Positions 19,337 to 64,000 of a DNA stretch of 64,000 bases are shown one piece after another. A program made the translations under genes and the position numbers. Where the stretch lies: positions 1,627 through 65,626 of the forward strand of contig JBAQYF010000031.1 of the NCBI GenBank assembly GCA_049299895.1, given 5' to 3'. Under the pieces are notes generated by a model. It was given only the letters and a program-made list of their open reading frames with translations. It had not been told where the DNA came from and did not search any database. This stretch comes from Candidatus Altiarchaeia archaeon (GTDB lineage Archaea > Altiarchaeota > Altiarchaeia > IMC4 > QMZM01). Position 1 is the first letter of the stretch. Each line of letters begins with the position of its first letter.

Positions 19337-19356
19337 TTTTATAATTATATAATTCT

Positions 19357-19377
19357 TAATGATTTATCATTATAATT
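19357..19377. promoter_or_regulatory. Shared promoter/operator element TAATGATTTATCATTATAATT in the hypC/hypF divergent intergenic
   Basis: Matches 22469..22489 at 20 of 21 positions. Imperfect palindrome TAATGAT..ATCATTA fused to a TATA-like ATTATAATT, about 17 nt upstream of the probable hypF ATG (19395). Confidence 0.55.
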
Positions 19378-22269: not shown

Positions 22270-22468
22270 GATTTCATACGGGCAGGCTGCGTATTACGCC
22301 GGACTGGAGTGATTTTTGAATTTGATTGATGCGGTTTTAGTTTCCTTTGATAACTTTTTCCATTCCATTCATTTATTTTCTAAACTATTTTTTCAGTTCT
22401 CCGGCCGCGCCTTTTTCCTTCTTTAAATTTTTGCCTTCCAGTATATATTCATACAATCAATCTTATCG

Positions 22469-22489
22469 TAATGATTAATCATTATAATT
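22469..22489. promoter_or_regulatory. Shared promoter/operator element TAATGATTAATCATTATAATT (perfect 16-bp palindrome TAATGATTAATCATTA) upstream of hdrA-mvh
   Basis: Verified from the reverse translation of listed ORF 22423..22641. About 15 nt upstream of the hdrA start. Confidence 0.55.
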
Positions 22490-48953: not shown

Positions 48954-49485
48954 CTTTGCACAAGCTCTCTATATAGTCGTTTAATTCTATTATCCGTTTT
49001 ACCGCAGGGTGTCCTGCCCCAAGGCGGCTCTCGAATTTTTTCACGGTCTCTTCTATCGGTACGATACGATCGCCCTCTGTGAGATTGTCCGCATGGGCTA
49101 TCACTTTTTCTTCGAGGGACATTGGCAGATAGTCTTTTACCGGGAGTCCCAGTATCTCTGCTTCTTTCCGGTCTATCCCTGCGCCGATGTGCCGCTCGCA
49201 GACGCGCGCAATATCCGGGGAAATCTGCTCCATTATTTTTGCGCCCTCTATGCCGTGCTTTATCCCGTGGGTGCGGCATCTTCCGATGTCGTGCAAAAGG
49301 GCTGCGGTCTCCACAAAATCTACATCGATAACGACGCCTTTGGCCTTGATGGATTCTGCGATGCTTTTAGCATGCCTTGAAACGGCGCAGACGTGCTTCA
49401 TAAGGGATTCGTCGCATCCCTCTTTTTTTAGCAGAGAAATAGCCTGGTTCTTATCTACGGATCTTGTTGAGCTTTTTGATTTCAA
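48940..49485 (-). CDS. HD-domain phosphohydrolase
   Basis: LLHDIGR...HG....GA...HIGAG..IAHADNL. Confidence 0.7.
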   Translation of the reverse strand: MKSKSSTRSVDKNQAISLLKKEGCDESLMKHVCAVSRHAKSIAESIKAKGVVIDVDFVETAALLHDIGRCRTHGIKHGIEGAKIMEQISPDIARVCERHIGAGIDRKEAEILGLPVKDYLPMSLEEKVIAHADNLTEGDRIVPIEETVKKFESRLGAGHPAVKRIIELNDYIESLCKDEKS

Positions 49486-49942
49486 TCTCGAGCTTTTTTA
49501 TGATCTTGTCGTTGTCGGATTCTACGAATGCCTCGCTGCAGGACGGGCACATGAAGTTTGTCTCCATCGCTTCGCCGAGAGTCACGCGGTTGCATGCGCA
49601 GTTGAACGTGACGCCTTCTTTTTCCAGGTCGAGCTGCTTTTGCAGGTCGTTTAGTTTGCCGCTTATATGCGACTGGACGAATTCGTCTATGCGGTCCTCC
49701 CTTCTCTTCCAGAGATAGGTGTACCAGCCGGTCTTTTTGTTCTTGCTCCTCTCGTATTCCACGAGGTTCTTTATGTGCAGGTCATTTAAGAGCGTACGGA
49801 CGACTGTCGCCTTCAGGTTCAGTTCCGCGGCTATGTCCTCGTCATGCTTGGGCTTAGAAAGAGTTCCTATGACGGTCACATGTCCTTCACTCAAAGTCTC
49901 AGAAAGAATATCAGTTAGTAGAGAATTTTCGGCAACCATCAT
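49451..49942 (-). CDS. tfe: Transcription factor E (TFE alpha, TFIIE-alpha homologue)
   Basis: Winged-helix N-terminal domain followed by Zn-ribbon CACN...CPSC. Archaeal marker. The ORF track has an N-terminal extension; start taken at MMVAEN. Confidence 0.7.
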   Translation of the reverse strand: MMVAENSLLTDILSETLSEGHVTVIGTLSKPKHDEDIAAELNLKATVVRTLLNDLHIKNLVEYERSKNKKTGWYTYLWKRREDRIDEFVQSHISGKLNDLQKQLDLEKEGVTFNCACNRVTLGEAMETNFMCPSCSEAFVESDNDKIIKKLEIEIKKLNKIRR

Positions 49943-49983
49943 ATAACTATACGAATTACACAAATAAATATGCATTCTGGACA

Positions 49984-52167
49984 CTATTCTGCCGAACCAT
50001 TCTTGGTTTCTTGTGTTTTGTCCTTCTCATCTGACTCTTTTTCGTTCTTCTTTCCGGGGGCATATCCCATAGGTATGGCTTTTCCTCCGGCCGCATTTTT
50101 CTGTTCCCCCGCATCGTTTTCCGGGGAGGATTTGCCGACAGCAGGTTCGGATGAAACGGTCTTTTCAATGGGGGATTCAGGAGATCCGGTTATGTTTTCA
50201 ACTACATCCGCGCCCAGTGGGATAGCACCCGACCGGTAGGACGTTTGTTTCTCAGTCTCTGCGGAGTCTAAAGGCTCTCTTTCATCGGATACTGTACTTG
50301 AAGCTGCGAATTCGTCCATGGTTTCTTCCCTGCCGACAGCCGTTGAAACCCCGCCTAAATAATCTTTTTGCGTTTCGTCCTTTGGCCCCTTTTTGGACTT
50401 AGACGGTTTGTGATCCTTCATCTGCTTTATGCCGAATCCGATTAATAGTACAAGTACTAGTCCCGCCAGCCCGAGGATCAATGGAGATTGTCCCTTGCTG
50501 TCTACTGAAGAAGGCTCTGTTGTTGAGGGCACATCCTCCGGAAGGGTTGTATCCTCTTCTTGAACGGTTGTGGTCGATGACGTGGTCTCTTCGCTTTTTC
50601 CCATCTCCTCCAGGAATTCCTCGCATCTGGTAACTCCTTCGGAATCGCCCGCCTCAATGTATAAGTCTTTAGCCTTTAGGAGTAACTCTTTTGCTTCCGC
50701 GTATCTGCCCAGGTAATATTCGCTTCGCGCCTTCTTGTAGAAGGATAGCCCGGTATCTTTTCGCACATCCTTTACGCTGGAGTTTATCGTAAGGAACAAT
50801 GAATCGCACGCAGTCAGTCCCTCGGAATCGGAAAGCTGCGAATAAATGTCTTTTGCATACGTTAAGTTGACCAGTGCCCCGGAGTATTTTCCGGCCGCAT
50901 AATTGTCCCTTGCCTCCTGATAATATGCTGCCGCAAGCTGCGCTTTTATGAATCGCTCGTTGGTCTCGTAGACAGTTATGTCTTTCCCTGAGGACATGAC
51001 ATAGTCGGCATACTTATTTTCCCCCAGATCGGTTACGATGATCCTCTCTATCGGCGCCGAGAGCACGTAGGACCATTTAAGCTTCCCTGCGCCGTTAAGA
51101 ACGTATATGTTCTGCGTAGTTGCAAGCACCACTTCTTTTCCTGCGTCTATGTCCAGGTTCAGGGAATAAACGCTCCTCAGGTTACGCGACGGGCTCCGGT
51201 ACTGCCACAGCATGATGCCATCCAGGTCCAGGAGATACGCTCCCTCGACTGATGGACTGGTAAACCAGACTAGGAATTCGTTAGCCTTTCCCCCGGATAT
51301 CTTGTCGGAGAAGACATCAGTTATAGTATAAGTGTTGTCAAGAGACTTGAACAATGAAACGGTAGTTCCGTCCAGGGCCCACAGGGAAATATCCGTTGAA
51401 CCGGAGACCATGACCTTTCCTGCCGCCTTCTGCAGGTAGATGGAATGAACATACCACAGGATATTATTGGTCCGGTAAGAAACCGCCAGAGTCCGGTTCG
51501 GAAGGAATACCAGGACGCTCCCGTTCTCGTAGCGATTCTCAGTATAGTTGCGTAGGTAAGTCTGATTCCCGGTATCAGGATTCGTCCCGGTCGAAATCTT
51601 TTCGATATAATCGATATTCGATCCGCCCGACGCGACCAGAAGCTCGGGGATGCCGTCTCCGTTGAGGTCTTCAGCCCTGATATCCCGCACCCAGTCGCCC
51701 ACCTCAAGCCACTTGACGGGCTCTTTTGCCCCGTACTCGATCATGTAAACGTCCCCCAGGCTGCGGGTGACCATGTAGACTATCTCGGGCTTCTCATGGA
51801 TGTTGTTCCTGTCAGAGAAATCAAAGCGCTCAACCGACAGGTTCCAAGTCTTCATATAGCCTGCGCCGAGAAGTATCTCGCCTGCGCCGTCTCTGTCTAT
51901 ATCGGCAACGTATATCACGGAAACAGTATAATTGATCGGGTAGGTACGTATCTGCCGTCCCCCGGCGTTGAACACATATACCTTGAGGGAATCTGCGGCA
52001 ATTATCTCGGAAACATTGTCTCCGTCAAGATCGCCAACTCCAAGGGCCGTTATCCCGTCATCCACAGACGCAGCCCACTTGGAGGAAAGCTGCTCTACCG
52101 CAGCGTACGCAGACCCGGCAGTACATATGAGCACACACAAAATGAATACGGCGTTATTTGTAGACAT
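49984..52167 (-). CDS. Large cell-surface protein (FG-GAP/VCBS-like beta-propeller repeats, TPR-like segment, Ser/Thr-rich stalk, C-terminal TM anchor)
   Basis: Signal peptide, repeated D.DGDG..E(I/L)(I/L) motifs, TM helix PLILGLAGLVLVLLIGF near the C-terminus with a charged tail. Confidence 0.55.
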   Translation of the reverse strand: MSTNNAVFILCVLICTAGSAYAAVEQLSSKWAASVDDGITALGVGDLDGDNVSEIIAADSLKVYVFNAGGRQIRTYPINYTVSVIYVADIDRDGAGEILLGAGYMKTWNLSVERFDFSDRNNIHEKPEIVYMVTRSLGDVYMIEYGAKEPVKWLEVGDWVRDIRAEDLNGDGIPELLVASGGSNIDYIEKISTGTNPDTGNQTYLRNYTENRYENGSVLVFLPNRTLAVSYRTNNILWYVHSIYLQKAAGKVMVSGSTDISLWALDGTTVSLFKSLDNTYTITDVFSDKISGGKANEFLVWFTSPSVEGAYLLDLDGIMLWQYRSPSRNLRSVYSLNLDIDAGKEVVLATTQNIYVLNGAGKLKWSYVLSAPIERIIVTDLGENKYADYVMSSGKDITVYETNERFIKAQLAAAYYQEARDNYAAGKYSGALVNLTYAKDIYSQLSDSEGLTACDSLFLTINSSVKDVRKDTGLSFYKKARSEYYLGRYAEAKELLLKAKDLYIEAGDSEGVTRCEEFLEEMGKSEETTSSTTTVQEEDTTLPEDVPSTTEPSSVDSKGQSPLILGLAGLVLVLLIGFGIKQMKDHKPSKSKKGPKDETQKDYLGGVSTAVGREETMDEFAASSTVSDEREPLDSAETEKQTSYRSGAIPLGADVVENITGSPESPIEKTVSSEPAVGKSSPENDAGEQKNAAGGKAIPMGYAPGKKNEKESDEKDKTQETKNGSAE

Positions 52168-52223
52168 AATAATTAATAAGTTAAATTATTATATATAGAT
52201 TCACCTTTTACACATATATTAGA

Positions 52224-52892
52224 ATGAATAGAATGGAAAAAACACCCCAAAACGCGCTCTGGATAGAATTAAAGAACGTGGTAGGAGCAATAAAAAGCAT
52301 CAGCACCGTCATCGCTGACCACGAGGGGAACATAACCCACATAGAACAGATAGGCCAAAAAGAGAACGCCTACCTCTACCTGGAAATAGAAGGAGCCCAG
52401 AATTTTCCAAAGCTCGTAAAAGACATGCAAAAACTCGCCGTCGCAGTGAGCGTTACCACCGTCCCGACATTCGGGAACGTATACGGAAAACGGGTGATCG
52501 TGATCGGCGGAGGAGCGCAAATAGCGGAAGTCGCCAAGGGAGCGATATCGGAAGCCGACCGCCACAACCTCAGGGGAGAGAAAATATCTGTCGACACCAT
52601 CCCGCTCGTAGGCGAAAAAGAGATATCCGAAGCGGTACGCGCAGTCGCAAGGCTGCCTAGGGCGAAAATAATCATACTGGCCGGAGCCATCATGGGAGGA
52701 GAGATAACGGAAGCCGTAAAGGAAGTGCAGGAACACGGAATACCCGTCGTGTCTTTGAACATGGCAGGATCAGTGCCAGACGTCGCAGACCTTGTCGTGA
52801 CGGATCCGATACAGGCAGGAGTGATGTCGGTAATGCACATTGCGGATACGGCGAAATTCAGGATAGAGAAGCAGAAGGGGCATAGGTACTAG
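52224..52892 (+). CDS. Hypothetical protein with N-terminal ACT-like domain (archaeal DUF5612-like)
   Basis: ORF only. Weak recollection of the archaeal ACT-domain family. Confidence 0.45.
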   Translation: MNRMEKTPQNALWIELKNVVGAIKSISTVIADHEGNITHIEQIGQKENAYLYLEIEGAQNFPKLVKDMQKLAVAVSVTTVPTFGNVYGKRVIVIGGGAQIAEVAKGAISEADRHNLRGEKISVDTIPLVGEKEISEAVRAVARLPRAKIIILAGAIMGGEITEAVKEVQEHGIPVVSLNMAGSVPDVADLVVTDPIQAGVMSVMHIADTAKFRIEKQKGHRY

Positions 52893-53303
52893 ATGAAAGA
52901 TACTAAGGATGTTGCAGTAGAATTTGTCTTGGATTATGAAAAGAAACAGGGACGGATCGCTCGAGACGTGCAATCAGACCAGAAATGCAAAGGTTACGAC
53001 GTTCTTAGCCATTCAAATGAGGGAAAGATTGCCCGGACAATAGAGGTGAAAGGAACACGTTCGGGGAATATTCCTGATTTCTATGCTACGGAAATTGAAA
53101 ATGGAAAGCTAGTTGCTTCGCATCTTTATGTGGTTTCCGTCAAAGAAAATTCTGATGAAATAGATAGATTTTTTATTATTGAAAGATCTGAAATAAGACC
53201 TGAAGATTTCAGTAAGGAAAAACCCCGTTACCGAATAAAGTTCAGAAAATTAGACTCAGGAAATATTGACAAATATGAGATGAAGCGATCAAATTTTATA
53301 TGA
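52893..53303 (+). CDS. Small DUF3883-like (restriction-endonuclease-fold) domain protein
   Basis: KGYDVLSHSNEGKIARTIEVKGT resembles the DUF3883 core (GYD...IEVK). AT-rich gene immediately after the previous stop. Confidence 0.45.
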   Translation: MKDTKDVAVEFVLDYEKKQGRIARDVQSDQKCKGYDVLSHSNEGKIARTIEVKGTRSGNIPDFYATEIENGKLVASHLYVVSVKENSDEIDRFFIIERSEIRPEDFSKEKPRYRIKFRKLDSGNIDKYEMKRSNFI

Positions 53304-53307
53304 TCAA

Positions 53308-54615
53308 TTACATTTCCTCCATCAGCCACTTCCACATGGGAACCATTTTCACCTTCTTCCCCGCGTGCTCCTCTACTCCTTCCTCGTCCCACGTTATTAT
53401 CATGAGTTCATCGCATCTCAGGTCCTTTGACGCCGCTATCAGCCCTTTGATCTCCCGTTTTTTCGTCTTTTCGTCTGAGAGGTTGTGGCATACTTGTATG
53501 ATCTCCGTTACTTTCGTCCCTTTCTTTGTTATGAAATCCGTCTCGTTTCCTGCGTAGTCTTTCCAGTAGTATAGCTCTGTGCCTGCTTCTCCTTTGCGTC
53601 TCATCAGTTCTATTGCGGCGATGTTCTCCATCAGTCTACCGGTGTTTTCAGTGCTCGTTATTCCGATCGCTTTTATCAGGCCAGTGTCTATCGCGTATGT
53701 TTTCCTGGGCATGCGTATCTGTTCTTTGATCTTGTAGGAAAAGTTTGGCAGCTGTATCACGAGGTATGATTCTTCGGCGTATGCCGCGTAATTCTTTATG
53801 GTGTGCTTGCTCTTTATTTCAAAGACGTTCTTTATCTTTTTGTAGGTTAGCGGGCTTGCGTAGTTCGATACCATATAGGTCACTATCTCGCGCAGAGTGT
53901 TTGTATTTCTTATTTTGTGCCTGCCTACGATGTCTTTGCTTACTATGGAGTCGTAGAGGTCTCTTAGGTATCTTGCGGGGTCGGGGAAGAGGTATGCTTC
54001 CGGGAAGCCTCCTTTTTCCATGTATTCCTTTAGTTCGTTTTTGGATTTTCCAAGGTCTTCTGCGATTTGGGGGCGTTCTTTCTGATCGGTTTTCCGGTAT
54101 TGCAGGAATTCAGCGTAGGAGAAGGGAAAAAGCTCTAAGGAGACGTGTCTTCCAGTTAAGTGCGTTGCCAGCTCTTTTCCGAGGAGTTTTGCATTGCTTC
54201 CAGTGACCAGTATCTTTAGTCCCTGCCTTTGCAGGCGGTTTACGAATAATTCCCAGCCGGGAACGTTTTGTGCTTCGTCCAGGAGCAGGTGCTCAAAGTC
54301 TCCATATACTTCGTACAACAGTTCTAGAATAGTGTCCAGATCGCCCGTTGAGACGCCGTAAAAACGCTCGTCGTCAAAGTTGACATATGCATACTTTTTG
54401 TCTCTCAGAAGCTGGAGGCATAGAGTGGATTTGCCGCATCGTCTGACCCCAAGTACGACGATTATAAGACCTGATTTCAGCAGCTGCTCACCTGTTACAT
54501 AGGCTTCCCTTTGTATGTAGTCCCTGTTTTGGTATTTCTTTTCTATTTCTGCTTTCTGCGCCAGGAGGACTGAACGGGCAGTGTTTCTATCCATTAAGTT
54601 ATATATAGAATGCAA
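53308..54615 (-). CDS. AAA+ ATPase of the AAA_14/DUF4143 family (paralogue of 8142..9569)
   Basis: Walker A GVRRCGKST, Walker B LLLDEAQ. Confidence 0.7.
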   Translation of the reverse strand: MHSIYNLMDRNTARSVLLAQKAEIEKKYQNRDYIQREAYVTGEQLLKSGLIIVVLGVRRCGKSTLCLQLLRDKKYAYVNFDDERFYGVSTGDLDTILELLYEVYGDFEHLLLDEAQNVPGWELFVNRLQRQGLKILVTGSNAKLLGKELATHLTGRHVSLELFPFSYAEFLQYRKTDQKERPQIAEDLGKSKNELKEYMEKGGFPEAYLFPDPARYLRDLYDSIVSKDIVGRHKIRNTNTLREIVTYMVSNYASPLTYKKIKNVFEIKSKHTIKNYAAYAEESYLVIQLPNFSYKIKEQIRMPRKTYAIDTGLIKAIGITSTENTGRLMENIAAIELMRRKGEAGTELYYWKDYAGNETDFITKKGTKVTEIIQVCHNLSDEKTKKREIKGLIAASKDLRCDELMIITWDEEGVEEHAGKKVKMVPMWKWLMEEM

Positions 54616-54825
54616 AACATATAAATTAGAGCATTATACTGCACTAATTCGGCCAAATTAGTGCACTATACTGCACTATTTTAGAAAGGTCTTAAAAAAG
54701 CATACCCAGCAACCCCTATTTTTTTGGATTTTAATCATCTAACGGCAGTGGTACCCTTGGGTACCACCCGGGGAGGGTCAGGTCCCAGGGAATGCAGGGC
54801 AGTGCCTGCAAATACCAAAAACTGG

Positions 54826-54845
54826 GGAGGGGCGGTAGCCCCTCC
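54826..54845 (-). terminator. Hairpin GGAGGGGC-GGTA-GCCCCTCC followed on the minus strand by a T5 tract, 3' of gene 54855..55160
   Basis: Perfect 8-bp GC-rich stem plus a T-run immediately downstream of the minus-strand stop codon. Confidence 0.4.
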
Positions 54846-54854
54846 GCGGTTTGG

Positions 54855-55160
54855 TTAGAAAAACTCGTTCAGCGGCTTTGCCGGCAGCTTCGTATAGCTT
54901 CTGCCTGCTTCGATCTTTGTTGAGTCCACAAGTTTTTTCATCAGCTTGTTGTTCTCTTTCTGCAGTTCCATCAGTGGGTGCATGTCTATCCTTGCGGGGA
55001 CGGACGTTTTGGTCTCCATTAGCGCAGTCAGCTTGTCCATCTTTCTGTTCTGCTCCCTTACGGCTTCTATGTGGCTCTTTAACAGCTTGTTTGTCTCTTT
55101 CTGCGCTTCGAGGATCTTGTTTAGGGCGTTTTTTTCGCCGTTTTCGGTTTTTTGAGGCAT
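54855..55160 (-). CDS. Small coiled-coil hypothetical protein
   Basis: ORF with heptad-like Lys/Glu/Leu-rich sequence. Confidence 0.4.
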   Translation of the reverse strand: MPQKTENGEKNALNKILEAQKETNKLLKSHIEAVREQNRKMDKLTALMETKTSVPARIDMHPLMELQKENNKLMKKLVDSTKIEAGRSYTKLPAKPLNEFF

Positions 55161-55257
55161 TTTTGCGGTCTTATAAGCCTGTAAGTCGCTTATATATTAT
55201 TCGGTTATTATTATAGATGCGTATAAGAAAACACATTCTTTTTTGGAGGATTCTAAG

Positions 55258-56091
55258 ATGAAGGTTCCGTTTGTTAAGATGCATGGGGCAGGAAACGATT
55301 TCATCGTTATAGACGAATACTCAGGGCAGCTTATCGCAGAGAGGGATAAGCCTGCATTCATCGCCAAGTATTGCAGGAGACATTTTGGCGTGGGAGCCGA
55401 CGGAGTCATATTCGTGCAGAAGTCAACGTCAGCCGATGCGAGGTTTGTGTTCTATAATCCTGACGGAAGCCGCGCGGAGATGTGCGGAAACGGCATACGC
55501 TGCTTTGCCAAATATGTCTACGACAAGGGCATTGTCAAAAAGCAGAACATGAGCGTAGACACGACCGCAGGAGTAAAGAACGTGGAGGTCTTCTTATCGG
55601 ACGGCAAGGTCTCCTCGGCCAAAGTGGACATGGGCGTTCCGGGGATAGAATTCACGGCAAAAGAAGTGGAAGTATCAGGCCTCATCAACAGAGTCACTTC
55701 GATCAACATGGGCAACCCTCATGCCATCGTCTTCGTCGACGACGTGGACGAAGTGGACGTTGTCGCTGTGGGTAGAAGGCTTCGCAATCAGAATGAACTT
55801 TTTCCAAGGGGAACGAATGTTCATTTCGTCCAGAAAACAAAAGACAATGAATTCTGCATCAGGACCTATGAGCGGGGCGTTGAAGACGAAACACTTGCCT
55901 GCGGTACGGGCATCTGCGCTTCAGCGGTAGCCGGGGTCCTGGACGAGTTAGCGGACGGTTCCAGGCCTATCGTCTTCCATGCCCGGGGGGGCAAATTGAT
56001 AATCGATTTAAAGAACGATTTTGCGAACACAAAGAGGGTATATATGACAGGCCCCGCAGAGGAAGTATTCAGCGGCGAACTGGATGTATAA
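55258..56091 (+). CDS. dapF: Diaminopimelate epimerase
   Basis: MHGAGNDFIVID, catalytic CGNGIRC and ACGTG motifs. Confidence 0.85.
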   Translation: MKVPFVKMHGAGNDFIVIDEYSGQLIAERDKPAFIAKYCRRHFGVGADGVIFVQKSTSADARFVFYNPDGSRAEMCGNGIRCFAKYVYDKGIVKKQNMSVDTTAGVKNVEVFLSDGKVSSAKVDMGVPGIEFTAKEVEVSGLINRVTSINMGNPHAIVFVDDVDEVDVVAVGRRLRNQNELFPRGTNVHFVQKTKDNEFCIRTYERGVEDETLACGTGICASAVAGVLDELADGSRPIVFHARGGKLIIDLKNDFANTKRVYMTGPAEEVFSGELDV

Positions 56092-56101
56092 GAGGGATAG
56101 G

Positions 56102-56902
56102 TCACTCATTTACCGCGTAATTTCTCATGCGCCCGATTTCTTCTATCTCCGAATCGATGACGTCTCCGTCTTTTATCGGCCCAACCCCTTCGGGTGTCCC
56201 CGATGCTATGACGTCTCCCGGCATCAGGGTCATGTATCCGGATACATAGGACACTATTTGCGCAGGCTTCAATAACATGTCCCCTGTGTTAGACTTCTGC
56301 TTCGTCTTCCCGTTGACCTTCAGTTCCAGGAATAGGTTCCCGGGATCCTTGATATATTCCTTTGGCACGATGCACGGACCGATCGGCGCGAACGTATCCA
56401 TTCCCTTGCATATGTCCCATGGGTCGCCTTTTTTCCTGGCTTCCCATTGCAAGTCTCTTGCGGTTATGTCCAGTATCATCGTGTATCCCGCGATGTAGTC
56501 CTGCGCCTCCTCCGGGCCTATGTGTTTTCCTTTTTTTCCGATGACTATTCCAAGTTCTATCTCGTGCTCGACCTGGGACGAGATATCCGGGAGTTTTATC
56601 GCTTCGTTTGGCCCTATCACGGATGTCGAAGGCTTTAGGAATATTATGGGCTTGTTGTCTGCGGATTTTAGTTCCTTGTTGTGTTCGGCGTAGTTCCATC
56701 CGAGGCCGATTATTTTCGGGGGAATCAGTGGAGAAGATAGTTTAATCCGAGCGCCCGGTGTTATCTCTTTTTTCCCGGAGGAATCAAAGCCCGATGCGAT
56801 GCATTCGATCATGCCCCGGTATGGTAGAATGTAGGTCTTTTTCCCGGATACGCAGCCTACATGCGCCTTTCCTTCATAAAGAAAGGAAATGAAGGAAATC
56901 AT
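56102..56902 (-). CDS. Fumarylacetoacetate hydrolase (FAH) family protein
   Basis: GLGWNYAEH...EHEIELGIVIGKKG...GDVIASGTPEGVG. ATG overlaps the ilvC stop (ATGA). Confidence 0.75.
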   Translation of the reverse strand: MISFISFLYEGKAHVGCVSGKKTYILPYRGMIECIASGFDSSGKKEITPGARIKLSSPLIPPKIIGLGWNYAEHNKELKSADNKPIIFLKPSTSVIGPNEAIKLPDISSQVEHEIELGIVIGKKGKHIGPEEAQDYIAGYTMILDITARDLQWEARKKGDPWDICKGMDTFAPIGPCIVPKEYIKDPGNLFLELKVNGKTKQKSNTGDMLLKPAQIVSYVSGYMTLMPGDVIASGTPEGVGPIKDGDVIDSEIEEIGRMRNYAVNE

Positions 56903-57882
56903 TTCTTCGCAAACATCCTGCGTAGTTCGGCTCCGACTTTCTCTATCTGGAGCTCTGATTCGTCGTGCCTCATCTTGTTCAGATTGGGCATGCCGTTCTT
57001 GCATTCCGCCATCCATTCATCCGCGAATTTGCCGCTCTGTATCTCTTTTAGGATAACCGACATGTTCTTTTTCACATGGTCGTCTACTATCCTTTTCCCC
57101 CGGGTCCTGCCGCCGAATTCAGCGGTGTTGGATACGCATCTCCACATGTATTCCAGGCCCCCGTTCTGTATGAGGTCGGTTATCAGTTTCATCTCGTGGA
57201 GGGTCTCAAAGTATGCTATCTCCGGCTTGTATCCTGCGTCGACGAGCGTCTGGAACGACGCTTTTATGAGTTCCGTTGCTCCCCCGCAGAGGTCTACCTG
57301 CTCGCCGAACAGGTCGGTCTCCGTTTCCTCGGTGAACGTAGTCTCAAGGACGCCCGCCCTTGTCGCTCCAAGAGCTTTCGATAATGCAAGCGCCATTTCA
57401 CGGGCCTTCCCGGTGTAGTTCTGTTCGATAGCAATCAGTGCAGGCGTCCCGAATCCTTCAAGGTATGTTTCCCTGACGCGTAAACCGGGCCCTTTTGGCG
57501 CGATCATTATAACGTCTATGTTTTCCGGCGGCACTATCTGCTTGAATCTTATGTTGAATCCGTGGGAGAACGAGAGGGCGTTCCCTTCGTCAAGATTTTT
57601 TTGTATGCTGTCCTTGTATGTCTGACCCTGTATCTCGTCTGGTATTAGTATGTGGACTATGTCTGCCTGTTTTGCGGCCTTGTCTATGGACATTACGTTG
57701 AACCCTGCTTCCGCCGCAGCATCGAAGCTTTTGCCCCTGCGCGCGCCGATTAACACGTCCAGGCCGGAATCCCTCATGTTCTGAGCCTGCGCTGCTCCCT
57801 GGTTACCGAATCCGATGACCGCTATGGTCTTTTCTTCCAGGACGCCTAGGTCGGCGTCTTTGTCGTAGTACATTTTTGCCAT
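56899..57882 (-). CDS. ilvC: Ketol-acid reductoisomerase
   Basis: IAVIGFGNQGAAQAQNMRDSG Rossmann N-terminus, class I KARI length. Confidence 0.9.
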   Translation of the reverse strand: MAKMYYDKDADLGVLEEKTIAVIGFGNQGAAQAQNMRDSGLDVLIGARRGKSFDAAAEAGFNVMSIDKAAKQADIVHILIPDEIQGQTYKDSIQKNLDEGNALSFSHGFNIRFKQIVPPENIDVIMIAPKGPGLRVRETYLEGFGTPALIAIEQNYTGKAREMALALSKALGATRAGVLETTFTEETETDLFGEQVDLCGGATELIKASFQTLVDAGYKPEIAYFETLHEMKLITDLIQNGGLEYMWRCVSNTAEFGGRTRGKRIVDDHVKKNMSVILKEIQSGKFADEWMAECKNGMPNLNKMRHDESELQIEKVGAELRRMFAKK

Positions 57883-57956
57883 TTTAAGAAAAACACTTGA
57901 ATGTTTGCAATATGTATTGGGGCAGAAAAGAAATAAATCAAAATATGCAGGTTAAA

Positions 57957-58075
57957 GCGGCAGGGCCCCGTCGGGGGGTGGTATAACAGGACCCTGCCGC
58001 CATAATCCAAATGAACACCAATAAAAGGGAAGCGGCATGGGCATCGTTCGGGGGGTGAACAGACACCCATGCCGC
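57957..58075 (+). repeat. Two tandem ~44-nt hairpin elements (10-bp stem GCGGCAnGGG.../...CCCnTGCCGC, loops sharing TCGGGGGGTG), the second followed by GTTTTCT
   Basis: Verified against listed ORF 57846..58070 translation. Intergenic between the Cys-rich protein gene and the ilvC start. Confidence 0.45.
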
Positions 58076-58094
58076 GTTTTCTAAAATGATTGAA

Positions 58095-58541
58095 TTAACA
58101 CCCTCCCTTGTACAGGCACGACCAGCATGTCCCCCTTCCAAGGACCGTAGGCGTGAACCTGCAATAAGGCGCTATGCTAGCGCACTCTTCCCCGGTGCAG
58201 GCTATGTGCAGGCCGCTTATGCTGTTGCAGTCATCGCATGTTTTGTAGGGTTGATTTGCATTGGCTGCGATGCATTTAGATAGGTAGCACAGGGTATCCG
58301 CCGGGCACTGCGTTCTTACGGTCGTGCATTTGTTGTTGGTTCCGCATGAGGCTTTTATCACGTATAATGGATTGCCGCGATCGCAGCTGTCATAGGTCGA
58401 ACCCCCGCCGGTGTCAGTGCATGCTCCCGATTCGGTCGGCGCCCCGGAATATGGAGCATCGGAAACCTGCTCAGACGCTGCCGGATTAGCCAACAGTATC
58501 GAGAACACCAGAACTAACAAAAAGATTATTTGTTTTCTCAT
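58095..58541 (-). CDS. Secreted cysteine-rich small protein (hypothetical)
   Basis: Signal peptide. About 20 Cys in 148 aa. Confidence 0.5.
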   Translation of the reverse strand: MRKQIIFLLVLVFSILLANPAASEQVSDAPYSGAPTESGACTDTGGGSTYDSCDRGNPLYVIKASCGTNNKCTTVRTQCPADTLCYLSKCIAANANQPYKTCDDCNSISGLHIACTGEECASIAPYCRFTPTVLGRGTCWSCLYKGGC

Positions 58542-58712
58542 AATTAGAGGATATATTATTTCTTAAGTAAGAATTATAGAATTTCTGCTTAATATACTAA
58601 TAAAATAACATCACAAGTTAGACAATTTTTTGATTAGGAATAGAAAAATTGGGTTCCAGCAGAAAAAGGGCGCATAACAAAAAGAAAAAAATCAACGGAT
58701 AATACATATATA

Positions 58713-58970
58713 TTATATAGTCATCTTCAGAGCCATTCTGACCGCAAGAAGCAGACCTATTATGGATCCTGCCAGGAGACCAGTCATCGTACCGACGTTC
58801 CCATAAGGCTTCCCCAGGAGGTAACCGACGATTATCGGGACGATTATGTAAACAGCGACTTCTATACCTGATACCGCCCCCTTGTAGAATATCTCCCCCG
58901 GGAGTATCTTCCTTTTGGGATTAAGATATTTTTCTATCAGCGCCTTTTTATGATTTTTTGCGCCTGTCAT
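58713..58970 (-). CDS. Small two-TM membrane protein (AtpZ/AtpI-like?), translationally coupled to tyrA
   Basis: Start MTGAKNHKK overlaps the tyrA stop (ATGA). Two hydrophobic helices rich in G/I/L. Confidence 0.35.
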   Translation of the reverse strand: MTGAKNHKKALIEKYLNPKRKILPGEIFYKGAVSGIEVAVYIIVPIIVGYLLGKPYGNVGTMTGLLAGSIIGLLLAVRMALKMTI

Positions 58971-60310
58971 CTCGAATGCCCCCCGATACCATCGAAGAAT
59001 TTTTTGATGTTCTCCTCGGTTGCTTTCACGCAGGAGTCCACTAGAGTAAAACTGAAGCATACGCTCTTTTTCCCGGCGCCCGCCTGTTTCCCGCGATAGA
59101 CGTCCTTAATGCAGGCAGAAACGATGCCGTCATTCAAATGCTTTAACAGAGACACCAAATAAGCCTCGTCTGTCTCATCGGACAGCACGATAGAATAGTC
59201 CCGTTCAACGGTCCCGTAAAACTCTCTTTTGAATAATGCCTTTTCTTCTTCGTCCAATACCTGCAGGTTGGATATCTTGAGAGTAGACTTCTTCCCCCCG
59301 GATTCAAGCACCACCGTATCAGGGGTCACGGATCGAACGATCCCAATGTGCCGCGTCCCCGAGTATATGTGACGCAGGCATATCTCTTTTCCTACTGATT
59401 TTTTGAGATAATCCAGTTCGGAGATAAGGGAATGGATCGCCTTATCGCTTCTCCCCATAGCCCGTTCCACGTCGTCGAAATTGCCCGCCGCATCCTTCAT
59501 GATACGGATAAAGCGCGCCTCATCCTTCTTCTTCACGGCGTCCGCTAGTTCCCCCGCAGTCTCAAGGAAAACCCTGTGCACCTTCGATACCTGGGGATTC
59601 TGCATCTGTATGGAAGCATACAACTCGGGATTCTGCCCCACTATGCGGCCGATCATGTCCAGCATGAGGTCGTATATCGGCGAGGAGTATTTGCGGGATT
59701 CCTTTATGTCGAAGTCAAGTTTTTCCAGGGTCTTTCCAACGGATATGTAATTAAAGTGGGTGAGCCCCTGGACGACGGCCATGATGTGATCATGCTCTTT
59801 TGGCGTGGAGTCGTATACCCTGGCCTTATGCTCCCCGAGGAATTCCCGGATAAAAGAGGTCCATCTCTTTCCCCTGACGGGCGTGAGAACAAACACCTGT
59901 CCTTCGAGGCCTCCTACGCGGTGCCCGAATACCGGATGAGTGCCAAGAACCTCGGCATCCCTGGGAGCGTATTTCTCCATGTACTCGCAGGGCTTCTCTT
60001 TGACGCTCGTAAGATCCATCAATAAAGAACCTGCCATCACATGAGGCGCAACCTCTTTTATCACGTCGAGAGTCGCATTGATCGGAACAGAAATGATCAC
60101 GATGTCTGCGTCTTTTGCAGCGAGCGCATTATCCTTTACGTATCCTGCGCCGATCTTTCTTGCAGTCTCCCGGCCTGGGATCTCATTCGGCCCGCTTATG
60201 GTTACGGGAAATCCTTCGACCGCGAAAAGCGAAGCAAAGAACCTGCCCATGCCCCCGTACCCGCCTATAATCGCTATCCTGGGTTTCTGCCCTGCAGCCG
60301 TTTTAGCCAT
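58967..60310 (-). CDS. tyrA: Prephenate dehydrogenase with a ~170-aa C-terminal extra domain
   Basis: [11 protein letters not shown] Rossmann, [22 protein letters not shown]. Start taken at MAKTAAGQ. Confidence 0.8.
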
Positions 60311-60416
60311 TTCCAGAGAAACAGTAATAATAGGCGCTTTGAATAATATATCACCAATAATGTTGAAGCGGGCGTTTTCAGGATTTATACCGTGCAGCAA
60401 AATAATTATCTGCCAG

Positions 60417-62015
60417 ATGGAAAAGAAAACAGCTATAATAATAGGCGCGGGACCCGCAGGACTGACAGCCGCCTATGAATTGCTTGAGAAAACGGATATC
60501 AAACCCATAATCTACGAAGCAAGCGACTCGATAGGAGGGATATCCCGCACCATAAACTACAAGGGCAACCGCATGGACATCGGCGGACACCGCTTCTTCT
60601 CCAAATCCGACAGGGTGATGGACTGGTGGAAGAACGTGCTCTTTCTCCAGGGGGAGCCCTCGAAAGACGAACTCATCCTGGACAAAAAATACCCCGGGCA
60701 AAAGCACAACCTGAAAACAGTCCCCGGCGGCCCGGACCCGGAGAAAACAGACAATGTAATGCTCATAAGAAAGCGCATTTCAAGGATCTTCTTCCTGAGA
60801 AAATTCTTCGACTACCCGGTCTCGCTCAACGCAAACACATTCAAGAACCTGGGCATCGTCCGCATAATAAAGATAGGGATAAGCTACGTCTGGATACGCG
60901 TATTCCCGATAAAAAAAGAAAAGTCCCTGGAAGACTTCTTCATGAACAGGTTCGGAAAAGAGCTGTATGAGACGTTCTTCAAGGATTACACCGAAAAAGT
61001 GTGGGGCGTCCCATGCAGCAAAATAGACCCGGACTGGGGGGCGCAGAGGGTAAAAGGCGTCTCCATTTCCAAAACCATCGAGCATGCGCTAAAAAAACAA
61101 TTCAAAAAAGACGAATCAATATCGCAGAAGAACGTAGAGACCAGCCTGATAGAACAGTTCATGTACCCCAAATACGGCCCGGGACAGATGTGGGAAACGG
61201 TCGCGGACAAGTTGAGAGCAAAAGGCGCAAAGATCCATATGGATCACGAGGCGATAGGGCTGATAAACGAAGGCAACAGGATAAGCGGCGTGAGAGTGCT
61301 GGACAAAAAAACAGGACAGATAACAGTCAACAGCGCAGACTATGTCTTTTCCACCATGCCGGTCAAAGAGCTGATAGCAGACCTGGAGAACGGAGCGCCC
61401 GAGGAAGTAAAGAAGATATCCGACGGACTGGTATACAGGGACTTCATAACCGTCGGGATCCTGCTCAAAAAATTAGCGATACGAAACGAGACGGATCAGC
61501 ACACCGTAGGGAACATCGTCCCGGACAACTGGATATACATACAGGAAAGGGACGTCTCGATAGGCCGCCTGCAGATATTCAACAACTGGAGCCCCTACAT
61601 GGTAGCGGACCTGGAGAACACCGTATGGATGGGCCTGGAATATTTCTGCAGCGCCAAAGATTCCTTATGGAACAAGAGCGACGAGGAATTCAAAAAATTC
61701 GCAGCGGACGAACTGGAAAAGATAAGCATCATCCGCAAAGAAGACATACTGGACTCGACCATAGTGCGCGTCCCGAAGACGTATCCTGCGTATTTCGGAA
61801 CGTATCACAGGTTCGACATGATCAAAAAGTACGTTGACACCTATGAGAACCTGTTCCTCATCGGAAGGAACGGCATGCACCGCTACAACAACCAGGACCA
61901 CTCCATGCTCACCGCGATGCTCGCTGTCGAGAACATCGCAAAAGGGATCACATCGAAGGACAACATCTGGGCAGTGAACACCGAAGAGGAATACCACGAG
62001 GGGAAAGGCAATTAA
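60417..62015 (+). CDS. FAD/NAD(P)-binding oxidoreductase (amine-oxidase/UDP-galactopyranose-mutase-like)
   Basis: [22 protein letters not shown] dinucleotide-binding motif, GGHRFF. The ORF-track N-terminal extension overlaps tyrA antisense and was discarded. Confidence 0.75.
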
Positions 62016-62059
62016 CGAAAAAGACGTGATTTATCTCTCTCTTACCTAATTCTAAGATA

Positions 62060-63475
62060 ATGGCCTCAGACAAAAAAAGCGTCCGCGAATCAGTAATAGC
62101 CGGCTCCTGGTATCCCGGCAAAAAAGAGGATTTGGCAAAGCTCATAGATTCATTTCTCGGGAACGCCGACAACGCCGGTCTCGGAGACGTAAAGGCATTG
62201 ATCGCACCCCATGCCGGCTACGCATACTCCGGGCAGGTTGCGGCCCACGCCTACAAGCAGATAGCCGGAAAAGAATACAAAAAAGTGATGATACTTGCCC
62301 CCAGCCATCACGTAGGCTTCAGGGGCGCATCCATCCCGGATTATACCTATTTTGAAACGCCCCTGGGGGAGATAAAAGTATCCAGCGCCGCAGGATCACT
62401 GAAAAAAGAGTCAAAACTCATACAGTCCATAGACCTGATTGAGGAAAAGGAGCATTCTTTGGAGATACAGCTTCCGTTCCTGCAGAAAGTCCTCGGCTCA
62501 GGGTTCGAGTTGATCCCGATGGTAGTAGGCGACCTCTCCGAGAAAGACAGAACGGACCTTGCCGAGTTGTTAACAAAGCATCTGGACGATGAAACGCTCC
62601 TTGTCGTAAGCACCGATCTCTCCCACTATTATCCGTATGACACCGCCGCGTTAATGGATACAGAATGCACCGATGCCATAACCGACCTGGATATCGAAGC
62701 CGCGGAAGGCTGCGAGATGTGCGGCATGAACCCGGTACTTGTCCTGCTGGAGATAGCAAAGAAACTGAACTGGAACGCGCATCTGTTGAAATACGCGAAC
62801 TCGGGAGATGCGACAGGCGATACCTCCGGGGTTGTTGGCTACGCTGCTATCGCATTCTACTCCGGGAAAAAGGAGGGGAATAAGGGAAATAAAAAAGGTG
62901 CTGCCGGCGACTTGAACAACGCGGAAAAAAAATATCTCCTCGGCCTGGCAAGGGAAACGATAGAAAACTATGTCAAATCAGGCGAAGTAACTGAACCGCA
63001 TACCGACGACCGGAAATTGAAAGAGACGCGCGGAGCCTTCGTAACGCTGGAAAAGAAAGGCCAACTGAGGGGATGCATCGGCCACATAGTGCCGGTACAA
63101 CCGCTGTTCCTTGACGTAAGGGACAACGCCATAAGCGCCGCAACCGAGGATCCGAGGTTCCGGCAGGTGGTGGAAGAAGAGCTCGACAAAATAGAGATAG
63201 AGATATCGGTCCTGACGTTCCCGGAAGAGATCAAGACAAAAAGCGCCAAGGAGACATTGGAAGCAATCAAGCCAGGGATCGACGGTATAATCCTCGAATA
63301 TAAAGGCAGAGGTGCTACATATTTGCCGCAGGTATGGGAGCAGCTGCCCGGAAAAGAGGAATTCCTGGACAGCCTGTGCATGAAGGCGGGACTATCCCCC
63401 GGCGACTGGAAGCAAAAGGATGCGAAGATCTCGCGCTACCAGGTGCAGGCATTCAAGGAATCAGATCTGCCGTAA
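62060..63475 (+). CDS. MEMO1-like (AmmeMemoRadiSam system protein B) fused to a C-terminal AMMECR1 domain
   Basis: N-terminal LIAPHAGYAYSG..ILAPSHH..VVSTDLSHY (Memo). C-terminal RGAFVTLEK..LRGCIGHIVP (AMMECR1). Confidence 0.75.
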   Translation: MASDKKSVRESVIAGSWYPGKKEDLAKLIDSFLGNADNAGLGDVKALIAPHAGYAYSGQVAAHAYKQIAGKEYKKVMILAPSHHVGFRGASIPDYTYFETPLGEIKVSSAAGSLKKESKLIQSIDLIEEKEHSLEIQLPFLQKVLGSGFELIPMVVGDLSEKDRTDLAELLTKHLDDETLLVVSTDLSHYYPYDTAALMDTECTDAITDLDIEAAEGCEMCGMNPVLVLLEIAKKLNWNAHLLKYANSGDATGDTSGVVGYAAIAFYSGKKEGNKGNKKGAAGDLNNAEKKYLLGLARETIENYVKSGEVTEPHTDDRKLKETRGAFVTLEKKGQLRGCIGHIVPVQPLFLDVRDNAISAATEDPRFRQVVEEELDKIEIEISVLTFPEEIKTKSAKETLEAIKPGIDGIILEYKGRGATYLPQVWEQLPGKEEFLDSLCMKAGLSPGDWKQKDAKISRYQVQAFKESDLP

Positions 63476-63484
63476 ATAAAGGAG

Positions 63485-64000
63485 TTAAAGATTATACTTC
63501 ACCGACGGGTGGACGGCATTCAGGTTGTAAGAAAAGACGAGGCCATTTGATTCTTCCATTACCTCATATCCTACTTCTCCCCGCTTCTTTGCCCCAGGAG
63601 CAATCTCCCCGTCCCTAAAACAATTTTCCAGAGCGCCCATGATCGCTATACTGGGCTTGGAATTGTGACCTGCCGAATCGGATATTTCACTGTTTAGCAT
63701 CGTGTTGATCACCTGGACCTGGCCGGGGTCGGTATTTTCAAAAGACACGTCCACTATCAGAAACTTCTTCCCTTTAGAGGCAGTTATGGCAAGGAACTTG
63801 CTGCCTTTCTCGTCTATGACGCTTGCGTATCTGACAGAGTGAACGGTGATCTTCATACCGTCTACGCTCGCCGATTCCCCTACCGAGAATTTCTTGGTCT
63901 GGTTCTTATCTTCTGCGCGGGTTGATTCAGTGGTGCAGCAGCTCAGGAAGAGAGCAAAAAACATCAATACCGCCAGGCAATAGATAGAGAGATTTTTCAT
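63485..64000 (-). CDS. DUF4352-like secreted lipoprotein
   Basis: Signal peptide with lipobox LSCCT, beta-rich domain (KITVHSV...FLIVDVSFENT). Confidence 0.6.
   Translation of the reverse strand: MKNLSIYCLAVLMFFALFLSCCTTESTRAEDKNQTKKFSVGESASVDGMKITVHSVRYASVIDEKGSKFLAITASKGKKFLIVDVSFENTDPGQVQVINTMLNSEISDSAGHNSKPSIAIMGALENCFRDGEIAPGAKKRGEVGYEVMEESNGLVFSYNLNAVHPSVKYNL

What the first reader, a model, noticed from the sequence alone, without database searches (positions are those of the whole stretch)
57957..58075. Two tandem hairpin elements with a conserved G-rich loop upstream of ilvC
GCGGCAGGGCC..loop..GGACCCTGCCGC and GCGGCATGGG..loop..CCCATGCCGC are both about 44 nt. Both loops contain TCGGGGGGTG, and the second is followed by GTTTTCT. 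The spurious GC-rich ORF 57846..58070 arises from them. Possible identities are a plus-strand terminator pair or small RNA antisense to the ilvC 5' end, a minus-strand leader/attenuator for ilvC, or a miniature repeat element.
Basis: seen in the sequence. Interest (0 to 1): 0.5.

Follow-up and report, generated by a model that had tools for sequence, protein, structure and literature searches.

The report
Twin RNA hairpins ending an inserted orphan gene
Two very stable, related stem-loops sit at the tail of a small strain-specific gene insertion just upstream of ilvC in an uncultured Altiarchaeota archaeon; they most likely form the structured 3' end of that inserted gene's transcript rather than a regulator of ilvC, and nothing like them was found anywhere else.

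Summary
Two 44-nt hairpins (57957-58000, 58032-58075) share the 10-mer TCGGGGGGTG. Read on the minus strand, they are the two most stable local folds in the 64-kb window. Five G-U pairs, and an RNA-specific gain of about 4-6 kcal/mol per hairpin, point to minus-strand RNA, the same direction as the flanking genes. The loops then read CACCCCCCGA. The two copies are tandem paralogues: a 14-bp stem is 100% paired, with four double and two wobble substitutions.

The organism is an Altiarchaeota/Altiarchaeia MAG. In 8 related lineages the small ORF before ilvC is followed by only 47-77 nt. Here, 754 bp flanked by a 16-nt direct repeat has been inserted. The insert carries an orphan 148-aa Cys-rich, secreted-looking ORF, followed by the hairpins. 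A conserved T-rich block that precedes ilvC in relatives lies downstream of the hairpins, so they are not an ilvC leader.

No other copy turned up in the window, relatives' loci, 241 M metagenome records, viral contigs or Rfam.

Best reading (about 0.45): structured 3' UTR, terminator-insulator or stabiliser hairpins of the inserted gene. The function of the conserved C-rich loop is unknown. Interest is low to moderate.

The parts
58032..58075 (-). Hairpin H2 (first in transcript order): 14-bp lower stem, 1-nt bulge, 4-bp upper stem, 7-nt loop ACCCCCC. It begins 19 nt after the stop codon of the orphan ORF.
   Evidence: RNA MFE -30.0 kcal/mol, z -6.8; second most stable 48-nt fold in the window.
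57957..58000 (-). Hairpin H1 (second in transcript order): 16-bp stem including three U-G pairs, 12-nt loop AUACCACCCCCC.
   Evidence: RNA MFE -31.2 kcal/mol, z -5.7; most stable 48-nt fold in the window.
58048..58057 (-). Conserved loop motif CACCCCCCGA in H2 (TCGGGGGGTG on the plus strand).
   Evidence: exact 10-mer, found only in the two hairpins.
57971..57980 (-). Conserved loop motif CACCCCCCGA in H1. It is shifted 2 nt relative to H2 within the apical region.
58001..58031 (-). 31-nt spacer between the hairpins. It carries a U4 tract (58026-58023) 5 nt after H2.
   Evidence: Sequence.
57926..57941 (-). Right copy of the 16-nt direct repeat (TTGATTTATTTCTTTT on the minus strand). It is part of the T-rich block preceding ilvC in the closer relatives, and carries two U4 tracts (57943-57940, 57929-57926).
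   Evidence: D2, 94% identity, spacing 754; GATTTATTT invariant in the four aligned loci and present in 7 relatives' loci representing 4 lineages.
58680..58695 (-). Left copy of the direct repeat (TTGATTTTTTTCTTTT). It lies directly after the stop of the small membrane ORF and marks the left edge of the insertion.
58095..58541 (-). Orphan ORF of 148 aa with a signal-peptide-like N-terminus and about 15 Cys. It is the gene whose 3' UTR the hairpins would form.
   Evidence: No Pfam hit. The only database hit is itself ('hypothetical protein WAX07_10500 [Candidatus Altiarchaeia archaeon]'; 1 hit in 1.84e9 representatives).
56899..57882 (-). ilvC (ketol-acid reductoisomerase), the downstream gene. 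Its ATG is 74 nt after H1.
   Evidence: closest hit P0001 92% identity; named relatives 67-75% are annotated as ketol-acid reductoisomerase of Candidatus Altiarchaeota/Altiarchaeales.
58713..58970 (-). Small conserved membrane ORF (72-85 aa in relatives) that ends the tyrA operon. In relatives it is followed within 47-77 nt by ilvC.

Best explanation
The two elements are paralogous RNA stem-loops, a tandemly duplicated unit of about 75 nt, read on the minus strand in the same direction as the flanking genes. They form the 3' terminal part of a 754-bp insertion specific to this strain. The insertion carries an orphan, probably secreted, Cys-rich protein gene and has landed between the tyrA/small-ORF operon and ilvC.

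The hairpins start 19 nt after the orphan gene's stop codon. Each is followed by U4 tracts, the archaeal termination signal.

Most likely they are the structured 3' UTR of the orphan gene's mRNA, with two roles:
- Together with the U tracts they define and protect the transcript's 3' end against 3'-to-5' decay.
- They insulate the adjacent ilvC promoter region from read-through out of the newly inserted gene.

What is shown: the structures, the strand, the paralogy with structure-preserving substitutions, the insertion, and the position relative to the stop codon and the conserved T-rich block.

What is inferred: transcription, 3'-end formation and stabilisation.

The identical single-stranded loop motif CACCCCCCGA in both copies implies an additional sequence-specific partner, either a protein such as a KH-domain factor or a G-rich RNA. 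That partner is not identified.
For: Strand:
- RNA MFE on minus versus plus is -31.2 vs -25.6 for H1 and -30.0 vs -26.1 for H2.
- With DNA parameters the strands differ by only about 1 kcal/mol, so the asymmetry comes from G-U pairs.
- All five G-U pairs are on the minus strand.

Selection on structure:
- In the gap-free alignment of the two copies, all 14 lower-stem pairs stay paired in both.
- 8 pairs are invariant, 4 are changed on both sides and 2 are changed by wobble. Sliding the partner by 1-3 columns drops pairing to 36-50%.
- Flanks and apical positions outside the 10-mer have diverged: 36 of 75 identical over the whole unit.

Position:
- The orphan ORF's stop is at 58095-58097 and H2 starts at 58075. 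U4 tracts lie at 58026-58023, 57943-57940 and 57929-57926.
- Archaeal terminators are U4 tracts, more efficient when there are two or more (PMC8716108).

Not an ilvC element:
- The ilvC upstream region was read in five lineages (L001, L081/L082, L085, L126-L128, L129), and gene spacing is known for three more (P0004, P0005, P0009). All eight have a 47-77-nt gap there and no hairpins.
- The conserved GATTTATTT block lies downstream of the hairpins.

The insertion is flanked by a 16-nt direct repeat.

The hairpins are exceptional: ranks 1 and 2 of all 48-nt folds in the window. A smaller GC hairpin followed by T5 also sits downstream of another gene, at 54845-54826 on the minus strand, so hairpin-plus-T-run gene ends occur in this genome.
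Against: - There are no expression data. Transcription, 3' ends and even translation of the orphan ORF are unverified.
- Archaeal termination does not need hairpins (PMC8716108), and most genes in this window have none. A plain terminator role therefore does not explain two 14-18-bp stems.
- It also does not explain why a 10-nt loop sequence is identical while the stems diverged.
- The simple hairpin-plus-T-tract terminator scan did not list either hairpin.
- There are only two sequences, and one identical second assembly (L086). The covariation statistics are therefore weak: 35 of 500 shuffles reach the observed values.
- Five of five G-U pairs on one strand gives p of about 0.06 two-sided.
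Confidence: 0.45

Rival explanations
1. A regulatory small RNA, either an independent gene or processed from the orphan gene's 3' UTR. Its two exposed C-rich loops (CACCCCCCGA) would act as seed regions, pairing with G-rich stretches such as Shine-Dalgarno-like GGGGG/GGAGG sequences in target mRNAs. This would resemble the C-rich-loop sRNAs of Firmicutes.
For: - The same 10-mer is single-stranded in both hairpins although the stems have diverged. That is the pattern expected for a seed.
- The element is a compact two-hairpin module of about 120 nt followed by U tracts.
- An 8-nt complement, UCGGGGGG, lies 14 nt upstream of the small ORF's start codon about 0.9 kb upstream, at 58986 on the minus strand.
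Against: - There is no recognisable promoter between the stop codon and H2, only 19 nt.
- The element is not conserved in any relative.
- The 8-mer complement occurs about as often as chance predicts, 2 extra hits in 128 kb. The nearby one is simply the Gly-Gly codons of tyrA.
- A strain-specific sRNA tied to an orphan insertion would have no conserved targets.
Confidence: 0.15
2. A DNA-level element: the end of a mobile cassette, or a miniature palindromic repeat (MITE/REP-like, or a recombination site in the style of attC or IS200/IS605 subterminal hairpins). It would have carried, or arrived with, the orphan gene.
For: - The hairpins form the 3' edge of a 754-bp insertion flanked by a 16-nt direct repeat.
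- A different relative (L083/L084) has an unrelated ~135-nt insert made of perfect palindromes at exactly the same intergenic site.
- Ca. Altiarchaeum hamiconexum is reported to have the highest MITE density among archaea, 146 per Mb (PMC11602168).
Against: - Only two adjacent copies exist. A covariance model finds nothing else in 64 kb or in 10 related loci.
- The pattern scan of 241 M metagenome records gave only chance hits, at most 16.7 bits against 62-64 for the true copies. Viral contigs gave 0 hits.
- No dispersed repeat families occur in the window.
- No GTAG/CGTC tag, no terminal inverted repeats at the insertion ends, and no transposase or integrase next to it.
- attC core sites are in the wrong order.
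- The copies are only about 64% identical, with wobble-type changes favouring one RNA strand. That is not expected for a DNA recognition site.
Confidence: 0.15
3. No function: a decaying tandem duplication of a palindrome created during the insertion event, for example by template switching, and retained because it is harmless.
For: It is strain-specific, lies next to an orphan ORF, has no homologues anywhere, and there are too few sequences for a real covariation test.
Against: The units have diverged to about 48% identity overall, yet all 14 stem pairs are kept in both copies and the loop 10-mer is identical. Neutral decay should have broken pairs and altered the loop.
Confidence: 0.15
4. 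A leader or attenuator controlling ilvC, read on the minus strand. This was one of the first reader's options.
For: - Same strand as ilvC and 74 nt upstream of it.
- A 12-nt stretch just 5' of H2 (CAUUUUAGAAAA, 58088-58077) is complementary to the ilvC start region UUUCUUAAAAUG (57891-57880) (I2).
Against: - Absent from every related ilvC locus examined. The conserved T-rich block lies between the hairpins and ilvC.
- The long-range pairing is AT-rich, is not in the MFE or centroid fold, and is of a kind expected by chance.
- There is no leader peptide rich in branched-chain codons.
Confidence: 0.05
5. A plus-strand terminator pair or an antisense RNA. This was another of the first reader's options.
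For: GTTTTCT follows H2 on the plus strand, and the hairpins still fold on the plus strand at -25.6 and -26.1 kcal/mol.
Against: - Plus-strand folds are 4-6 kcal/mol weaker, with A-C mismatches.
- No co-directional plus-strand gene ends nearby.
- The T-run is only 4 nt.
Confidence: 0.03

Closest known systems
Archaeal U-tract terminators / structured mRNA 3' ends (aCPSF1/FttA-dependent termination; PMC8716108)
   Same: Located just after a stop codon, co-directional with the gene, and followed by one U4 tract and then two more.
   Different: Known archaeal terminators generally lack upstream hairpins. Here there are two unusually long (14-18 bp) GC-rich stems with a conserved loop sequence.
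Bacterial REP/BIME elements acting as 3' mRNA stabilisers and read-through attenuators (PMC3733652)
   Same: GC-rich imperfect palindromes with G-T(U) pairs, located just downstream of coding regions, occurring in tandem, and probably transcribed and acting as RNA hairpins.
   Different: No GTAG/CGTC tag, both copies in the same orientation, only two copies found, no RAYT gene seen, stems longer than typical REPs (6-9 bp), and the host is an archaeon.
C-rich-loop regulatory sRNAs of Firmicutes (RsaE/RoxS type; recalled from my own knowledge, not checked here)
   Same: Two hairpins exposing a C-run in the loops.
   Different: No evidence of an independent transcript, no conservation and no identified targets. 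The resemblance is of motif only.
Integron attC sites (archaeal integrons, PMC9668308)
   Same: An imperfect palindrome directly downstream of a short, promoter-proximal orphan ORF that looks like an inserted cassette.
   Different: No 5'-RYYYAAC...GTTRRRY-3' core pair in the required order, no extrahelical bases or unpaired central spacer, no array and no intI. The stems are fully paired.

Membership tests
Any Rfam family | Score at or above the family's gathering threshold | tested here: not met
   0 hits in the whole window at gathering thresholds. In E-value mode over 57850-58750, the only hit on the hairpins is a meaningless mir-4524 match at 16.3 bits against a gathering score of 68.
Bacterial-type intrinsic terminator | GC-rich stem with a 3-8 nt loop, immediately followed by at least 5 T in 8 nt | tested here: not met
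   The consensus scan over 48000-64000 lists 24 sites, but neither hairpin on either strand. The tails are UUCCCUUUUAUU (H2) and UUUAACCUGC (H1), and the apical regions are 16 nt.
Archaeal U-tract terminator | One or more U4 tracts at the transcript 3' end downstream of the stop codon (PMC8716108) | tested here: met
   U4 at 58026-58023 after H2, and U4 at 57943-57940 and 57929-57926 after H1. This shows the sequence only; actual 3' ends are not testable with these tools.
REP/BIME (RAYT-mobilised palindromes) | Terminal GTAG or CGTC tag | tested here: not met
   The flanks are AAAGC|GGC...GCC|GCCAT and GGAAGC|GGC...GCC|GCGTT. There is no GTAG/CGTC or its complement at either end (definition from PMC3733652).
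REP/BIME and MITEs | Many dispersed copies per genome | tested here: inconclusive
   No further copy in the 64-kb window, in 10 related loci, in metagenome or viral scans, and no dispersed repeats in the window. The rest of this MAG (contig 160,990 bp and others) could not be searched.
MITE | Terminal inverted repeats flanked by a short target-site duplication | tested here: not met
   Each hairpin is itself an inverted repeat, but no matching duplicated bases flank either one. The 754-bp insert has a 16-nt direct repeat but no terminal inverted repeats.
Integron attC | 5'-R'' (RYYYAAC) ... R' (GTTRRRY)-3' pairing at the base, extrahelical bases, and an array or intI nearby | tested here: not met
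   The only near-matches are GTTAATT (58099-58093) and CTTTAAC (57955-57949). They occur in the order R'-like then R''-like on both strands, which is the reverse of attC. The stems have no extrahelical bases. No integrase was found among the neighbours scanned.
CRISPR mini-array | Near-identical repeats, usually three or more, of 25-40 nt with unique spacers | tested here: not met
   Two 44-nt units share only 28 of 52 aligned columns, and no further repeats are present.
ilv leader/attenuator | Conserved upstream of the regulated gene in relatives, and lying inside its 5' UTR | tested here: not met
   Absent in every relative examined. The hairpins lie upstream of the conserved T-rich block.
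M. mazei sRNA154 (initial lead from memory) | Methanosarcina-specific sRNA located between MM3337 and MM3338, with an NrpR operator | tested here: not met
   The organism is Altiarchaeota, not Methanosarcina, and the locus context differs (PMC3177094).

The most novel reading that the evidence does not exclude
The pair is a lineage-specific regulatory RNA module in Altiarchaeota. Its two C-rich apical loops are a sequence-specific ligand: either a seed for G-rich mRNA sites, or a binding site for a KH-domain termination/processing factor such as aNusA or aCPSF1. It would have been acquired together with an orphan secreted-protein gene as a self-contained, self-terminating cassette. That would be a new kind of hairpin-dependent 3'-end or insulator signal in archaea, where termination is thought to need only U tracts.
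Probability: 0.12. Interest if true: 0.6.

Novelty: new member of a known kind. Interest (0 to 1): 0.3.

Why it matters
If the hairpins really shape the 3' end of the inserted gene, this would be a clear natural example of how a newly acquired gene is insulated from an essential neighbour, ilvC, in an archaeon. It would also be an example of hairpin-assisted 3'-end formation in a domain where hairpins are considered dispensable for termination. The conserved C-rich loop would then mark an unknown RNA-protein or RNA-RNA contact in an uncultured phylum with no RNA biology described. If the hairpins are only a decaying palindrome, the finding is ordinary. The main practical point is that this is not an ilvC regulator, and that the 74-aa and 67-aa ORFs across it are spurious.

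Tried and rejected
- **sRNA154 of Methanosarcina mazei** (my first idea, from memory): wrong organism and wrong locus.
- **Known RNA families:** none in Rfam, in either gathering or E-value mode. No tRNA or tmRNA.
- **Orthologous conservation and covariation:** impossible. The element is absent from all relatives reached through ilvC homologues. The only other assembly with it, Logan SRR28062479 (L086), is 100% identical.
- **Other copies:** the pattern GCGGCAN{8,18}CACCCCCCGAN{4,14}TGCCGC gave 39 hits in metagenome contigs. All but one are in contigs of 0.53-0.73 G+C (the exception, L103, is 0.41), all fold weakly (-10 to -22 kcal/mol), and none scores above 16.7 bits with the covariance model, so they are chance matches. 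Viral contigs gave 0 hits. The covariance model R1 run with filters off on the window and on 10 Altiarchaeota loci found nothing beyond the two copies.
- **Phage similarity of the whole insert:** none.
- **Homologues of the orphan ORF, to look for hairpins downstream of them:** none in 5.8e9 or 1.84e9 proteins.
- **attC, REP, MITE and CRISPR readings:** defining features not met (see the membership tests).
- **Long-range pairing of the H2 5' flank with the ilvC start codon:** not part of the predicted fold.
- **Extending into the rest of the contig via end-of-window proteins:** the proteins are not on record.
- **Supplementary MITE catalogue of PMC11602168:** not held.

Full report
**1. What is there**

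There are two 44-nt inverted-repeat units, 57957-58000 (H1) and 58032-58075 (H2), separated by 31 nt. Both contain TCGGGGGGTG, and that 10-mer occurs nowhere else in the window. GTTTTCT follows H2. The 74-aa ORF 57846..58070 and a 67-aa ORF 57938..58141, both on the minus strand, run across the hairpins and are artefacts of them.

The structures are far beyond chance:
- As minus-strand RNA, H1 folds at -31.2 kcal/mol (z -5.7) and H2 at -30.0 kcal/mol (z -6.8).
- Among all 48-nt windows of the 64 kb on both strands, they rank first and second.

**2. Strand**

The minus strand folds better by 5.6 kcal/mol (H1) and 3.9 kcal/mol (H2) as RNA. As single-stranded DNA the difference is only about 1 kcal/mol. 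The reason is that five stem positions are G-U on the minus strand and would be A-C on the plus strand. The minus strand is also the coding strand of both neighbours. On that strand the stems are 14+4 bp (H2) and 16 bp (H1), and the shared motif reads CACCCCCCGA, exposed in a 7-nt or 12-nt loop.

**3. The two copies are paralogues under structural constraint**

A gap-free alignment puts a 14-bp lower stem in register in both copies. Of those 14 pairs:
- 8 are invariant;
- 4 differ on both sides (U-A/G-C, G-C/U-G, G-U/C-G, C-G/G-C);
- 2 differ by wobble;
- every cell is a standard pair.

Sliding the 3' partner by 1-3 columns drops pairing to 36-50%. Over the whole 75-nt tandem unit only 36 of 75 positions are identical. 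The stems kept pairing, and the loop 10-mer stayed identical (though shifted 2 nt), while the rest diverged. With only two sequences the shuffle control is weak: 35 of 500 shuffles reach the observed values.

**4. Organism and context**

ilvC (56899-57882, minus) has its closest named relatives in Candidatus Altiarchaeota/Altiarchaeales. The neighbouring orphan protein is recorded in NCBI as a hypothetical protein of a Candidatus Altiarchaeia MAG, on a 160,990-bp contig.

On the minus strand the order is:
- tyrA (prephenate dehydrogenase, 60400..58967);
- a small membrane ORF (to 58713);
- an AT-rich stretch;
- a 148-aa ORF (58541..58095) with a signal-peptide-like start and about 15 cysteines;
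- 19 nt;
- H2, then 31 nt, then H1;
- 74 nt;
- ilvC.

**5. Comparison with relatives**

Nine related lineages were reached through ilvC homologues: L001, L081/82 (92% ilvC identity), L083/84 (82%), L085 (80%), L126-128, L129, L130, L131-136, and the P0005 contigs. In eight of them the ORF upstream of ilvC (the small ORF, or tyrA itself in L001 and L131-L136) is followed by ilvC after only 47-77 nt.

A T-rich block, (ATCC)GATTTATTT..., lies 54-66 nt upstream of the ilvC ATG in the window and in L081/82, L083, L085 and L126-128. It is not evident in L001 or L129. It is either the U-tract terminator of the upstream operon, a TATA-like promoter element for ilvC, or both. In the window this block lies downstream of the hairpins (57943-57925).

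A second copy of its core, TTGATTTTTTTCTTTT, sits directly after the small ORF (58695-58680). The two copies are 94% identical and 754 bp apart. They bracket exactly the material that relatives lack. The orphan ORF plus the hairpins is therefore a 754-bp insertion specific to this lineage. The hairpins are its 3' end, not part of an ancestral ilvC leader.

One relative (L083/L084) has an unrelated ~135-nt insert of perfect palindromes at the same site (z -8.5). This intergenic spot has accepted structured insertions twice.

**6. Search for other copies and known families**

- Rfam: nothing.
- A covariance model of the two copies finds only themselves, at 62.7 and 64.5 bits, in the window with filters off. 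It finds nothing in 10 Altiarchaeota loci.
- An exact-pattern scan of the metagenome collection gave 39 hits. Nearly all are in high-GC contigs, all have weak folds, and the best covariance-model score is 16.7 bits, so they are chance.
- Viral contigs: none. Phage genomes: none.
- The orphan protein has no homologue in 5.8e9 clustered proteins or 1.84e9 representatives.
- A second assembly of the same strain (Logan SRR28062479) is identical across the region.
- No dispersed non-coding repeat family is visible in the window.

**7. Interpretation**

The hairpins lie immediately after a stop codon, run co-directionally with it, and are followed by U4 tracts: one after H2 and two after H1. U4 tracts are the established archaeal termination signal, recognised by aCPSF1 and more efficient with two or more tracts. 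Hairpins are not normally required (PMC8716108).

The best-supported reading is that the pair forms the structured 3' end of the inserted gene's mRNA. It would aid or mark termination, protect against 3'-to-5' decay, and shield the ilvC promoter region from read-through. This is inferred from position and anatomy only.

That reading does not explain the identical C-rich loop. The loop suggests a sequence-specific partner. Archaeal NusA and aCPSF1 carry KH domains that bind single-stranded RNA (PMC7289017, PMC8716108). From my own knowledge, KH domains of poly(C)-binding proteins prefer C-runs. This link is speculative.

Rivals:
- A trans-acting C-loop sRNA.
- The end of a mobile cassette or a palindromic repeat. 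The prior for this is raised by the very high MITE density reported for Ca. Altiarchaeum hamiconexum (PMC11602168), but no extra copies, tags, terminal inverted repeats or recombinase were found.
- A functionless decaying palindrome.

**8. Verdict**

It belongs to a strain-specific orphan-gene insertion and not to ilvC regulation. It is probably an ordinary kind of element, a 3'-end hairpin pair, in an unusual host. The one unexplained feature is the conserved C-rich loop. Interest is 0.3.

Noticed in passing
window 54738-54860 (+): A ~120-nt highly structured non-coding segment, with closing stem UCUAAC/GUUAGA and three internal hairpins including GGGGAGGGGC-GGUA-GCCCCUCC. MFE is -67.5 kcal/mol (z -4.8) on the plus strand against -57.5 on the minus strand. 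It contains the third most stable 48-nt fold in the window and has no Rfam match. It lies in a stretch that the 92% relative L081 lacks, next to an AAA_14/DUF4143 ATPase gene (53308..54615). Candidate unannotated ncRNA.
   Followed up: partly
window 54622-54683: A 62-nt AT-rich near-perfect palindrome made of two 31-nt arms with no spacer (84% complementary), which also reads as a 27-nt direct repeat. It lies between the ATPase gene start and the structured segment. Possible operator or mobile-element end.
   Followed up: no
window 58095-58541 (-): A 148-aa ORF with a classical signal-peptide-like N-terminus and about 15 cysteines. It has no homologue at all in 1.84e9 protein representatives and no Pfam hit. 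It is a true orphan, inserted between tyrA and ilvC.
   Followed up: partly
L083 3800-3940 (and identical L084 547-687): In a relative with 82% ilvC identity, the same intergenic site carries a different ~135-nt insert built from two perfect palindromes (13-nt arms TTACAAAATCGGC and ACTCCGGCCCGAA, the second enclosing two inner hairpins). MFE is -71.7 kcal/mol, z -8.5. It looks like a miniature palindromic element, and the site seems to be an insertion hot spot.
   Followed up: partly
window 58077-58088 and 57880-57891: A 12-nt complementarity (11 of 12 with one G-U) between the sequence just 5' of H2 (CAUUUUAGAAAA) and the ilvC start-codon region (UUUCUUAAAAUG). It is AT-rich, is not in the predicted MFE, and is probably chance.
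   Followed up: partly
window 19354-19377 and 22466-22489: A 24-nt AT-rich palindromic motif (TCKTAATGATTWATCATTATAATT) occurs twice, 3.1 kb apart, at 92% identity. Both copies are next to gene starts. Possible shared operator or promoter element.
   Followed up: no
window 58525-58584: A 30-nt tandem direct repeat (70% identity) spans the orphan ORF's start codon and its AT-rich upstream region.
   Followed up: no
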